Shown here: in pieces, positions 52,430 to 54,275 of the stretch | Numbering within the stretch: the first letter of the stretch is position 1 | How the letters are laid out: each line of letters begins with the position of its first letter | NCBI GenBank assembly: GCA_009914755.4 | Contig: CP068257.2 | Location: 11,328,001-11,392,000 of the forward strand | Length of the DNA stretch: 64,000 bases | DNA from: the human T2T-CHM13v2.0 reference genome, Homo sapiens | Direction of reading: 5' to 3' | The notes under the pieces: generated by a model | The model's database searches: none | What the model was told of the DNA's origin: nothing | The model's input: the letters and a program-made list of their open reading frames with translations, nothing else | Program-made: the position numbers and the translations under genes

Positions 52430-52546
52430 GATCCAGGAGTTGGGCCCTGGGGCTGGGCATTGTGTAGCCTCCGGGATGGTGCTGAGCATCCATTCCCACC
52501 CTCCTGCAGCTGGGGACCCATCCCTTGACTTGGGACCCCTGGAGGC
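52430..52546 (-). repeat. Inverted, CpG-decayed partial copy of a segment of the downstream CpG island (53,955-54,072)
   Basis: The segment 52,430-52,546 'gatccaggagttgggccctggggctgggcattgtgtagcctccgggatggtgctgagcatccattcccaccctcctgcagctggggacccatcccttgacttgggacccctggaggc' aligns to the reverse complement of 53,955-54,072 'gatccaggagctgggccctggcgctgggcatcgtgcagcctccagggtggcgctgagcgtcggttcccggcctcctgcagccagggacccaacccctgacttaggctccctggaggc'. Most differences are CG to TG/CA. Similar peptides also appear in ORFs 52339..52560(-) and 53945..54385(+). Confidence 0.8.
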
Positions 52547-52679
52547 AAGAACATGGTCACCCACTTTAATCACATGGTCCCTATCACATAATCAGAGGGC
52601 GCTGTGGGTTTTAACTCTTCAAGCTAGATGTGTAAACAATTCGACATAGATAAGATATAGTGACTAGAAGTCTTTTATT

Positions 52680-53062
52680 TATTTTGAGAGAGAGTCTCTG
52701 TTGCCCAGGCTTGGAGTGCAGTGGCACAAACAATCAAACAATAACCAAAATCCAGAAGAATGAAAAGGTCAAATGCTGTCAAGGATGGGGAGCAACAGGA
52801 CCTCTCATTCCTTGTTTGTGGCACAATCAGTTTACTGTACCCACGAACTCCCAGGCCCAAGTGATCATGCCACAATCAATCTCCCAAGTAGCTGGGGCCA
52901 CAGGCATGCACCACCATGCCTGGCTGATTGGTTTTATTTTTATAGAGATAAAGTTTCCCTGTGTTGTCTAAGCTGGTCTCAAACTCCTGGGATCAAGTGA
53001 TCCTCCTATCTCGGTCTCCCAAAGTGCTGTAAGTACAGGCATGAGGTCCTGCACCCAGCCTG
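52680..53062 (-). mobile_element. Mosaic of Alu pieces (minus) interrupted by a ~105-bp L1 ORF2-3'-like fragment (52,731-52,845)
   Basis: The sequence 'tttattttgagagagagtctctgttgcccaggcttggagtgcagtggcacaa' then an insert containing 'ggatggggagcaacaggacctctcattccttgtttgtggcacaatcagtttactgtac' (compare L1 'ggatgtggagcaacaggaactctcattcattgctggtgggaatgcaaaatggtacag'), then 'cccaggcccaagtgatcatgcc…cccaagtagctggggccacaggcatgcaccaccatgcctggctgatt…ctcccaaagtgctgtaagtacaggcatgaggtcctgcacccagcctgg'. Confidence 0.55.
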
Positions 53063-53454
53063 GAAGTCTTTATAGATAAGTTCAATTTAACTGTTTCTCC
53101 ATCTGATCCACTCAGCCGAGTTTCCCTCTCAGTCCAAGGGTGAGAACTGCAGCTCAGCCCCATCCAGGATGGCTGCAGATGACCCAGCGCCACTGCCATA
53201 CTCCAGATGCTGGTCAACGAGGAAGGGATCCTGAGGCCTGGCAGCGGGCGCTCTCAGGAACCTTGAAGCCCTCTAAACGGGACCCGCCATCCGTGCCTGT
53301 CAGAACTGGTGCCGCTACCTGCACTTGGCACACAGGCAAATATGGCCAAGCAACCCCAAACTCCCCTCTTCCCCTCTGGGCCCAGGCGGCGCTGAACCTG
53401 CTGCTCAGCCGCATCCTGGCGACTGCACAGTGCCCAGAGCCTGCAAACCAGCGC

Positions 53455-54065
53455 TCAGGGCGCGAGCCAAGGAAGAGCAGGGCCTAGAGTGGGAGGGCGT
53501 GTGCCACACGGCTACCCTAAGGCCGTCGGGCCCAGCCCTGCAGCCTCTACCGTGGGCTCAGCTGCAGCTGGCATTTGAAGGTGGCAGCAGCGGTGGCAAC
53601 CCCAGAACCTGTCCGCGCCACCAGCAGGCGAACCCCAGGGTCGGACACCGCCACTGCGCCTAAGTCAGGCAGTGGGACCTCAGTTGCAGGATCGTGGGAA
53701 CCTGCTGCAAAGCCTCGTCGCCGCAGCTGTACAGGGCCCAGTGGTCGCAAGCCTGCGCTGCCAGCGCGAGCCGAGGAAGAGCAGAGCCCCGGGTGGAAGG
53801 GCGATGTACTCGGCGATGCTCAGCGGTCTGGGCCCAGCCCTGTAGCCTCTACCATGGGCTCAGCTGCAGCTGCCACCTGAACATGGCACGTGGCAGAAGA
53901 GGCTGCAACCCTGACCCTGCCAGCGCCACCAGCCGCGCGGATACTTGGGCCAGAAGCCTCCAGGGAGCCTAAGTCAGGGGTTGGGTCCCTGGCTGCAGGA
54001 GGCCGGGAACCGACGCTCAGCGCCACCCTGGAGGCTGCACGATGCCCAGCGCCAGGGCCCAGCTC
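53455..54065. repeat. Two tandem copies of a ~305-bp GC-rich unit inside the CpG island (a third, more diverged partial copy lies upstream at ~53,150-53,455)
   Basis: Unit 1 reads 'cagggcgcgagccaaggaagagcagggcctagagtgggagggcg…cccagccctgcagcctctaccgtgggctcagctgcagctggcatttgaaggtggcagc…ccgcgccaccagc…gcctaagtcaggcagtgggacc…' and unit 2 reads 'cagcgcgagccgaggaagagcagagccccgggtggaagggcg…cccagccctgtagcctctaccatgggctcagctgcagctgccacctgaacatggcacg…cagcgccaccagc…gcctaagtcaggggttgggtcc…'. Parallel peptides appear in ORFs 53325..53663 and 53575..53880. Confidence 0.8.
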
Positions 54066-54275
54066 CTGGATCTCAGGTTGAGGAGGGGCCAGGAGCGGCT
54101 CTGTCAAGCAGGCCATGTGGCAGGGAGCCCCCCACGTTCCGCTGTAAGGAGCCCTGCCAGCCCGATAGCGCCTCAGTAGCAGGTGCCACCTGCACGCCGT
54201 GCTGGGCGAAGCGCAGCCAGGGCGGTTTCCTGCCTCGCGTGCCTCCCAGGTCTGCTGAGTTGCGCATGCGCTGTT

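What the first reader, a model, noticed from the sequence alone, without database searches (positions are those of the whole stretch)
52430..54072. Inverted, CpG-depleted duplicate of part of the CpG island 1.5 kb upstream
Segment 52,430-52,546 is the reverse complement of island segment 53,955-54,072. Almost every difference falls at a CpG of the island copy, which reads TG/CA in the upstream copy (catCGtgCag becomes cattgtgtag; gtggCGctgagCGtCGgttccCGg becomes atggtgctgagcatccattcccac). The distal inverted copy has therefore decayed as methylated DNA while the island copy stayed unmethylated, a textbook footprint. The inverted pair could also mediate local inversion or hairpin formation. The ORF track independently shows mirrored peptides (52339..52560(-) vs 53945..54385(+); 52440..52649(+) vs 53820..54116(-)).
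Basis: seen in the sequence. Interest (0 to 1): 0.55.

Follow-up and report, generated by a model that had tools for sequence, protein, structure and literature searches.

The report
Old inverted promoter fragment, CpG-decayed
A 117-base piece of the GC-rich repeat array upstream of an ANKRD30-like gene lies upside-down 1.4 kb further upstream and has lost nearly all its CpGs; it is a real but ordinary old duplication relic shared by all sister copies of the locus, and the "island" copy is itself slowly losing CpGs.

Summary
Window 52430-52546 is the reverse complement of 53956-54072: 117 nt, ungapped, 98/117 identical, far above chance.

- Only 6 of the 19 differences lie on CpGs of the island copy, not "almost every" one. 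Four are TG/CA changes and two are transversions.
- Paralogs and ANKRD30A imply at least 9 CpGs in the ancestral arm. The distal copy keeps 1. The island copy keeps 6 and has lost 3.
- The "island" is weak (CpG o/e 0.57). Among paralogs its CpGs mutate to TG/CA 6-7 times faster than other C/G bases, as fast per site as the few CpGs outside it. It has not simply "stayed unmethylated".

The island is a degenerate array of about four ~300-bp tandem units. The distal copy is an isolated inverted piece of the promoter-proximal unit, set in AT-rich DNA. An Alu was later inserted between the arms.

Both arms, in the same arrangement, occur in all 13 distinct human-derived paralog contigs that span them. 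The copy therefore predates the paralog radiation and is not locus-specific. Non-CpG divergence is 0.13, similar to the ANKRD30A/B-like split.

I found no sign of inversion, constraint or membership of a dispersed repeat family. This is an ordinary neutral relic of low interest.

The parts
52430..52546 (-). Distal inverted copy (arm 1). It is a GC-rich 117-nt block (65% GC, 1 CpG, o/e 0.08) embedded in AT-rich unique DNA. It may extend 6-7 nt further, to 52423.
   Evidence: the extension to 52423 appears in alignments with L021 and L026
53956..54072 (+). Source or 'island' copy (arm 2). It is part of the promoter-proximal unit of the tandem array, about 430-550 bp upstream of the exon-1 ATG. 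It has 6 CpG and o/e 0.41.
53121..54072 (+). Degenerate GC-rich tandem array of about four units of roughly 250-305 bp. 53394-53741 matches 53698-54049 at 70-72%, and weaker unit matches lie at 53121-53204 and 53376-53441. The distal copy matches unit 3 best (84%), then 53137-53204 (73.5%) and 53648-53741 (66%).
   Evidence: (D6, D11, D13, D15)
52670..53062 (-). Antisense Alu with a candidate target-site duplication GAAGTCTTTAT and an internal ~100-bp insertion. It lies between the arms, so the original spacing was about 1.0 kb. It is present in all paralog contigs.
   Evidence: sequence read; Alu matches (I1, I4, D5, D7); collinearity
53200..54600 (.). CpG-rich region ('island'): 1401 bp, 65.7% GC, 86 CpG, o/e 0.57. 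In 200-bp windows o/e ranges from 0.41 to 0.72.
54275..54337 (+). 21-bp minisatellite TGCCTAACGGTTCTGCTCAGC x3, between the island arm and exon 1.
54503..54720 (+). ANKRD30-like exon 1 (MERLCAAAVKGQTGPERPSPFSQLVYTNNDSYVIHHGDLRKIHKAASR...). It carries a 1-bp deletion in a G run near 54645 that shifts the frame. A splice-donor-like gt lies at 54721.

Best explanation
The distal segment is a neutral relic of one old, small (about 117-124 bp) inverted duplication. A piece of the promoter-proximal unit of the ~300-bp GC-rich tandem array upstream of an ancestral ANKRD30B-like gene was copied in reverse orientation into AT-rich DNA about 1 kb upstream. An Alu later inserted between the two copies. 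The whole block was then spread by segmental duplication to all ANKRD30B-like (pericentromeric) paralogs.

Outside the CpG-rich promoter the copy behaved as ordinary methylated DNA and lost 8 of at least 9 ancestral CpGs. The source copy, inside a CpG-rich but only partly protected promoter, lost 3 of 9. Since the paralog radiation the CpGs of the 'island' have themselves been decaying at a methylated-DNA-like rate.

Shown: the repeat, its orientation, its presence in every paralog contig that spans it, the CpG asymmetry, and CpG decay inside the island. Inferred: the direction of copying (array to distal site), the mode of origin (a replication or repair template switch, i.e. a templated insertion, rather than transposition), the age in years, and the absence of function.
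For: The repeat is real and far beyond chance.

The distal block is the only GC-rich piece in AT-rich flanks, and its homology stops sharply at both ends. It matches the local tandem units and nothing else in the 64-kb window.

A 21-mer probe shared by both arms recovered 18 human-derived contigs from the metagenome collection. All are collinear with this locus, and none comes from any other human locus.

Both arms lie in the same inverted arrangement about 1400-1418 bp apart in all 13 distinct spanning contigs, which are 94-98.8% identical to the window. In L041 the spacing is 1112 bp because a tandem unit is missing.

Distal arms carry 0-2 CpG and island arms 5-7 CpG in every paralog, so the depletion predates the paralog radiation.

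Column-by-column comparison with paralogs and ANKRD30A shows at least 9 ancestral CpGs, with 8 lost in the distal copy and 3 lost in the window's island copy.

Non-CpG K2P distance between the arms is 0.129. This is close to the window-versus-ANKRD30A upstream distance of 0.145 and well below the tandem-unit distance of 0.28.

Variation among paralogs in the distal arm (4.4% of non-CpG columns) equals that of the flanks (4.3%) and the island (4.0%), so there is no sign of constraint.
Against: No empty (pre-insertion) site was recovered, so the direction and mechanism of the copying event are inferred.

Differences fixed between all distal and all island arms cannot be rigorously polarised. ANKRD30A carries only an island arm, and the older tandem units are too diverged. 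At three island CpGs those units read TG/CA like the distal copy. That could mean parallel decay or CpG gain in unit 3.

The loss asymmetry of 8/9 versus 3/9 is only borderline significant by my own Fisher estimate (about 0.05).

The paralog sequences are short-read contigs from human-contaminated metagenomes. Collapsed or chimeric paralogs are therefore possible, and majority-rule polarisation favours the window-like group.

The window's own lineage shows too few changes (1/82 CpG sites) to establish its present methylation state.
Confidence: 0.8

Rival explanations
1. The two copies differ almost only by methylation-driven CpG to TpG decay of the distal copy, while the island copy was kept intact by being unmethylated in the germline.
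For: All 6 island-arm CpGs are gone from the distal arm, 4 of them as TG/CA. CpG bases are enriched among the mismatches (p=0.004). Distal arms have 0-2 CpG against 5-7 in island arms in every paralog.
Against: 13 of 19 differences are not at island CpGs, and 2 of the 6 CpG losses are transversions. The island arm lost 3 ancestral CpGs, one of which the distal arm still keeps. Island CpGs show TG/CA variants at 43/108 sites among paralogs, and per-lineage CpG transition rates are 6-7.5 times background, equal per site to non-island DNA. Island o/e is only 0.57 and the island arm's is 0.41.
Confidence: 0.12
2. Both arms are independent insertions, or the terminal inverted repeats, of a dispersed transposable-element family rather than a local duplication.
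For: The inverted arms flank a ~1.4-kb segment. A weak 9-10-nt similarity flanks the distal arm (TTCATGAYC versus AACATGGTC, 6-7 matches).
Against: The arms match only the local tandem units in the 64-kb window. The shared 21-mer recovered only ANKRD30-like loci among human-derived contigs. The segment between the arms consists of AT-rich unique DNA, an Alu and tandem units, and I saw no transposase-like ORF. There is no target-site duplication outside the pair of arms. No Dfam/RepeatMasker run was possible.
Confidence: 0.04
3. The inverted pair is functional. It might act as an inversion switch by recombination between the arms, form a cruciform or RNA hairpin, or serve as a duplicated regulatory module of the ANKRD30 promoter.
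For: The arrangement is retained in every paralog contig. The source arm lies about 430-550 bp upstream of the exon-1 ATG.
Against: The retention is explained by common descent, since the paralogs are 94-99% identical throughout. The arms vary among paralogs as much as the flanks do. The arms are only 84% identical with a longest perfect run of 11 bp. From general knowledge, that is far below what mammalian homologous recombination or cruciform extrusion needs. All 13 distinct spanning contigs are collinear with the window. There is no Rfam match in the region.
Confidence: 0.03

Closest known systems
Differential CpG decay between duplicated sequences inside and outside CpG islands (deamination of 5-methylcytosine; classic for pseudogenes and old repeats). 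Established knowledge, not tested against a database.
   Same: The copy lying outside the CpG-rich promoter has o/e 0.08 and lost 8 of at least 9 ancestral CpGs, mostly as TG/CA. The copy inside retains 6.
   Different: The 'protected' copy is not well protected. It lost 3 CpGs, the island's o/e is 0.57, and island CpGs decay 6-7 times faster than background among paralogs. About half of all differences are unrelated to CpGs.
Small inverted duplications or templated insertions produced by replication or repair template switching (FoSTeS/MMBIR, polymerase-theta-type templated insertions). Recalled from general knowledge.
   Same: A short (~120 bp) fragment is copied in inverted orientation about 1 kb from its source. 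Its boundaries are sharp and there are no transposon hallmarks.
   Different: The event is tens of millions of years old. No empty site was recovered and junction microhomology could not be assessed, so the mechanism is inferred and not shown.
ANKRD30B-like pericentromeric paralog family (ANKRD30BL and ANKRD30BP pseudogenes), with ANKRD30A as the more distant member.
   Same: The exon-1 peptide is 96-99% identical to peptides on human-derived contigs and 73% identical to the ANKRD30A-type peptide P0005. One hit is named ANKRD30A-like. A 13.4-kb alpha-satellite array lies 41 kb upstream. This fits the known association of ANKRD30BL with relic-centromere alpha satellite (PMC7719264).
   Different: No recovered contig is identical to the window (best 98.8%). 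The window copy has a frameshift in exon 1. The exact locus could not be assigned. ANKRD30A shares homology only from window 53843 onward.

Membership tests
CpG island (Gardiner-Garden and Frommer criteria) | Length >200 bp and G+C >50% | tested here: met
   53200-54600 is 1401 bp with 65.7% GC
CpG island (Gardiner-Garden and Frommer criteria) | CpG observed/expected >0.6 | tested here: not met
   o/e is 0.57 overall. In 200-bp windows it ranges 0.41-0.72 and exceeds 0.6 only at 53600-53799 and 54200-54599. The island arm itself is 0.41.
Methylation-driven CpG-decay footprint between two copies | Differences are concentrated at CpG positions | tested here: met
   6/12 CpG bases differ against 13/105 other bases, Fisher p=0.004. 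This is still only 6 of 19 differences.
Methylation-driven CpG-decay footprint between two copies | Changes are C>T / G>A transitions (CG to TG/CA) | tested here: inconclusive
   4 of 6 are TG/CA and 2 are transversions (GG, CC). With inferred ancestral CpGs, the distal copy has 5 transitions and 3 transversions.
Methylation-driven CpG-decay footprint between two copies | The island-resident copy is protected (CpG substitution rate near background) | tested here: not met
   The island arm lost 3 of at least 9 ancestral CpGs. 43/108 island CpG sites carry TG/CA variants among paralogs. CpG-base transitions run 6-7.5 times the non-CpG rate. Per-site loss is 7.4% in the island against 7.0% upstream.
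Methylation-driven CpG-decay footprint between two copies | Direct evidence of germline methylation state | not testable with these tools
   No bisulfite or methylome data are available here.
Inverted low-copy repeat able to mediate inversion (NAHR) or cruciform formation | Long, near-identical arms (hundreds of bp at >95% for NAHR; short spacer and near-perfect arms for a cruciform) | tested here: not met
   The arms are 117 nt, 84% identical, with a longest perfect run of 11 nt and a 1409-nt spacer. The thresholds come from general knowledge.
Inverted low-copy repeat able to mediate inversion (NAHR) or cruciform formation | Both orientations of the spacer are observed among copies or haplotypes | tested here: not met
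   All 13 distinct spanning contigs are collinear with the window.
DNA transposon with terminal inverted repeats, or a dispersed repeat family | Many dispersed copies elsewhere in the genome | tested here: not met
   In the window the arms match only the local tandem units. The 21-mer scan found only ANKRD30-like loci among human-derived contigs. This was a narrow probe, and no Dfam search was possible.
DNA transposon with terminal inverted repeats, or a dispersed repeat family | Target-site duplication flanking the element | tested here: inconclusive
   There is none outside the pair of arms. A weak 6-7/9-10 match flanks the distal arm alone.
ANKRD30 gene family 5' region | The exon-1 peptide is homologous to ANKRD30 N-termini | tested here: met
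   13 hits with E values from 2e-41 to 2e-16, including one named ANKRD30A-like (Hylobates) and the ANKRD30A-type peptide P0005.
ANKRD30 gene family 5' region | Intact reading frame and downstream ankyrin-repeat exons | tested here: not met
   A 1-bp deletion in exon 1 shifts the frame. Downstream exons were not examined.

The most novel reading that the evidence does not exclude
The distal inverted copy might be more than a relic. It could be a retained cis-element of ANKRD30B-like promoters: a duplicated regulatory module, or a partner that pairs with the island arm in a read-through transcript to give a ~117-bp imperfect dsRNA. Its presence at the same spot in every paralog would then reflect function rather than descent alone.
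Probability: 0.03. Interest if true: 0.35.

Novelty: new member of a known kind. Interest (0 to 1): 0.1.

Why it matters
It matters little beyond annotation. It is a clean small example of two copies of one sequence diverging in CpG content according to their genomic neighbourhood. It also shows that the ANKRD30B-like 'CpG island' is a decaying, repeat-built, intermediate-CpG promoter rather than a protected island. The fragment, the Alu between the arms, the variable ~300-bp units and the 21-bp minisatellite are useful markers for telling apart and dating the pericentromeric ANKRD30B-like paralogs. No new biology is implied.

Tried and rejected
- Exact look-up of two window ORFs (54320-54940 minus strand, 53945-54385 plus strand) in the assembly index found nothing on record. 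The same was true for the Hylobates protein P0009.
- I tried to extend the repeat beyond 117 nt with gapped and sensitive alignments. At most 6-7 further bases align, so this is not the remnant of a larger head-to-head duplication.
- The older tandem units were too diverged (60% mean column identity) to serve as outgroups. They gave mixed signals at CpG sites.
- The ANKRD30A contigs reach only 1.3 kb upstream and run into an Alu plus unrelated AT-rich DNA. Whether the distal copy exists at ANKRD30A therefore stays open.
- The non-human contigs (about 80% identity) nearly all begin at the outer edge of the island arm. They gave only 22 nt of outgroup sequence.
- The Rfam scan found nothing in the region; the only hit in the window is a U6-like sequence at 63877-63983.
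- By eye, the island arm's GCGCCACCCTGGAGGC is a poor match to the CTCF consensus as I recall it. No tool was used, so I did not pursue this.
- Literature searches on ANKRD30BL methylation and segmental duplication gave context only, namely relic-centromere alpha satellite (PMC7719264, PMC3491418). Nothing concerned this repeat.

Full report

Yes. The repeat finder lists an inverted pair, 52430-52546 and 53956-54072: 117 nt, 84% complementary, 1409 nt between the arms. A gapped local alignment of 52300-52700 against the reverse complement of 53800-54250 returns exactly this ungapped block, with 98 of 117 bases identical.

The match is far beyond chance. BLAST within the window gives E of about 1e-28 to 1e-30. 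The Smith-Waterman score is 139, against 20.9 +/- 2.3 (maximum 31) for 200 dinucleotide-preserving shuffles.

The mirrored ORF peptides exist but are only the repeat read in protein space.

**2. Are the differences at CpGs?**

Only in part. The arms differ at 19 positions.
- Six fall on the 12 bases that form the six CpGs of the island arm. Thirteen fall on the other 105 bases. The enrichment is significant (odds ratio 7, Fisher p=0.004).
- All six island CpGs are absent from the distal arm. Four read TG/CA there and two read GG/CC, which are transversions.
- The distal arm has one CpG of its own (52472-73), where the island arm reads CA on that strand.

So "almost every difference falls at a CpG" is an overstatement, although the enrichment is real.

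**3. What surrounds the repeat?**

- **Host and gene.** The window is primate DNA rich in Alus. An ORF at 54491-54673 contains MERLCAAAVKGQTGPERPSPFSQLVYTNNDSYVIHHGDLRKIHKAASR. After a 1-bp frameshift the next frame continues GQAWKLERMMKKTTMDLNIRDAKKR, up to a gt at 54721.
- **Family assignment.** This peptide finds 13 proteins. They include 96-99% identical peptides on human-derived metagenome contigs, an ANKRD30A-type peptide (P0005, MEEISAAAVKVVPGPERPSPF...) and a protein named ANKRD30A-like from Hylobates. The locus is therefore the 5' end of an ANKRD30B-like gene copy.
- **The "island".** The region 53200-54600 is 65.7% GC with CpG o/e 0.57, ranging 0.41-0.72 in 200-bp windows. This is an intermediate island, not a strong one.
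- **Tandem array.** The island is built from a degenerate tandem array. 53394-53741 aligns with 53698-54049 at 70-72%, and weaker unit matches lie at 53121-53204 and 53376-53441.
- **Which unit was copied.** The distal copy matches the promoter-proximal unit best (84%). It matches 53137-53204 at 73.5% and 53648-53741 at 66%. It is therefore a copy of unit 3, made after the units had diverged.
- **Setting of the distal copy.** It is an isolated GC-rich block in AT-rich unique DNA. Homology stops sharply at both ends, with at most 6-7 further bases aligning.
- **Alu between the arms.** An antisense Alu (about 52670-53062, apparent target-site duplication GAAGTCTTTAT) lies between the arms. The original spacing was therefore about 1 kb.

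**4. Is the copy locus-specific?**

No. I recovered contigs in two ways: through the exon-1 peptide, and through one scan of metagenome contigs with a 21-mer shared by both arms.
- Most are human contamination in gut, bile or oral metagenomes. They are 94-98.8% identical to the window and collinear with it.
- None is identical to the window, so they represent paralogs or other haplotypes.
- All 13 distinct contigs that span both positions carry both arms, inverted relative to each other and 1400-1418 nt apart. L003 and L042 are the same contig. In L041 the spacing is 1112 nt because one ~300-bp unit is missing.
- Distal arms carry 0-2 CpGs and island arms 5-7 in every contig.
- The duplication, the Alu insertion and the CpG depletion therefore all predate the spread of the paralogs.
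- Of the 21 stretches hit by the 21-mer, 18 are ANKRD30-like. The other three are unrelated environmental contigs. This argues against a dispersed repeat family.

**5. Which copy changed?**

I compared distal arms, island arms of the B-like paralogs, L021 and the ANKRD30A arm (L012) column by column. The ancestral arm had at least nine CpGs.
- The distal lineage lost eight. Five went by transition (cols 36, 49, 59, 67, 86) and three by transversion (cols 11, 56, 96).
- The window's island arm lost three.
  - Cols 11-12: a window-specific C>A.
  - Cols 35-36: TG in the island arm where the distal arm has CA.
  - Cols 74-75: TG in the window group, CA in the L001 group, and still CG in all distal arms.
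- Several island CpGs have decayed independently in other paralogs or in ANKRD30A (cols 59-60, 66-67, 95-96).
- About eight differences have nothing to do with CpGs.
- A caveat applies. Differences fixed between all distal and all island arms cannot be polarised rigorously, because ANKRD30A supplies only an island arm. The older tandem units are too diverged to help and give mixed signals.

**6. Has the island "stayed unmethylated"?**

The paralog comparison says no, at least for the family as a whole.
- In 53063-54600, 43 of 108 CpG sites carry a TG/CA variant among seven sequences. Only 2.1% of non-CpG columns show a transition.
- Per lineage, CpG bases changed by transition 6-7.5 times as often as other C/G bases in L008, L010, L001, L002 and L005.
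- Summed, the per-site loss is 40/542 (7.4%) in the island and 4/57 (7.0%) in the non-island DNA upstream.
- Against ANKRD30A, only 18 of 43 CpGs in the shared 650 bp are still CpG in the window, and 10 read TG/CA.
- The window's own lineage has too few changes (1 of 82) to judge.

The picture is of a formerly CpG-rich promoter that is itself decaying. The distal copy has simply decayed further (8/9 losses against 3/9, borderline significant by my own estimate).

**7. Age**

K2P distance between the arms is 0.188 overall and 0.129 when CpG-related columns are excluded. The window versus ANKRD30A upstream region gives 0.200 and 0.145. The tandem units give 0.33 and 0.28.

The inverted copy is thus about as old as the split between ANKRD30A and the B-like genes. 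That is tens of millions of years at commonly quoted primate neutral rates, which is my inference.

ANKRD30A shares homology only from window 53843 onward. Upstream of that point it has an Alu and unrelated AT-rich DNA. Whether it ever had the distal copy remains open.

**8. Function, inversion and hairpin**

- Paralogs vary in the distal arm as much as in the flanks: 4.4% of non-CpG columns, against 4.3% upstream and 4.0% in the island.
- The longest perfect run between the arms is 11 nt.
- All spanning contigs are collinear with the window.
- Rfam finds nothing in the region.
- From general knowledge, recombination between 84%-identical 117-nt arms, or cruciform extrusion across a 1.4-kb spacer, is not expected.

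**9. Verdict**

The feature is a real, old, small inverted duplicate of a promoter repeat unit. It most likely arose by a template-switch or templated-insertion event, though this mechanism is inferred. All ANKRD30B-like paralogs inherited it.

The CpG contrast is genuine and fits the known behaviour of sequences moved out of a CpG-rich promoter. It is not the clean "textbook footprint" described, and the island copy is not protected.

The finding is ordinary and of low interest. As a specific instance it is probably undescribed, but it belongs to a well-known kind.

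Noticed in passing
window 1-13422: Monomeric alpha-satellite array with a 171-bp period, 78 copies and 79% matches, cut by the window start. It places this ANKRD30B-like copy next to (peri)centromeric or relic-centromere DNA (compare PMC7719264 on ANKRD30BL).
   Followed up: partly
window 63877-63983 (+): Full-length U6 snRNA match (RF00026, 69 bits, E 2e-15), about 9 kb downstream of exon 1. It could be a gene or a pseudogene copy; this was not assessed.
   Followed up: no
window ~54645 (exon 1, 54503-54720): A 1-bp deletion in a G run (CCCGGGGCC to CCCGGGCC) shifts the ANKRD30-like exon-1 frame. 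It is shared with L008, L003, L002 and L005, while L010 and L001 are intact. The window copy is probably a pseudogene.
   Followed up: partly
window 54275-54337: 21-bp minisatellite TGCCTAACGGTTCTGCTCAGC x3. There is a single copy in ANKRD30A and in the ~80%-identical non-human contigs. The ANKRD30B-like paralog contigs carry a variable 2 to about 4 copies.
   Followed up: partly
L041 (about 1604-1890) versus window 53394-54011: One paralog contig lacks one ~300-bp unit of the GC-rich tandem array (arm spacing 1112 instead of about 1410 nt). The array therefore varies in copy number among paralogs, unless this is an assembly collapse.
   Followed up: no
window 52670-53062: The antisense Alu between the arms has an apparent target-site duplication GAAGTCTTTAT. 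It also carries a ~100-bp non-Alu insertion (about 52735-52845) flanked by GTGGCACAA-like repeats (read).
   Followed up: no
L043-L054 (non-human Logan contigs), window-equivalent 54077: Nine of twelve contigs from a species about 80% identical to the window start 4-5 bases past the outer edge of the island arm (window-equivalent 54077; the arm ends at 54072). Only L050 reaches 22 nt into the arm. Assembly graphs often break at repeat edges, so the arm may be repeated in that species too.
   Followed up: no
L012 1-684 versus window 53843: Homology between ANKRD30A and the window ends at window 53843, inside the tandem array. Upstream, ANKRD30A has Alu sequence and then unrelated AT-rich DNA. 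This could be a duplication breakpoint or an Alu-associated rearrangement.
   Followed up: partly
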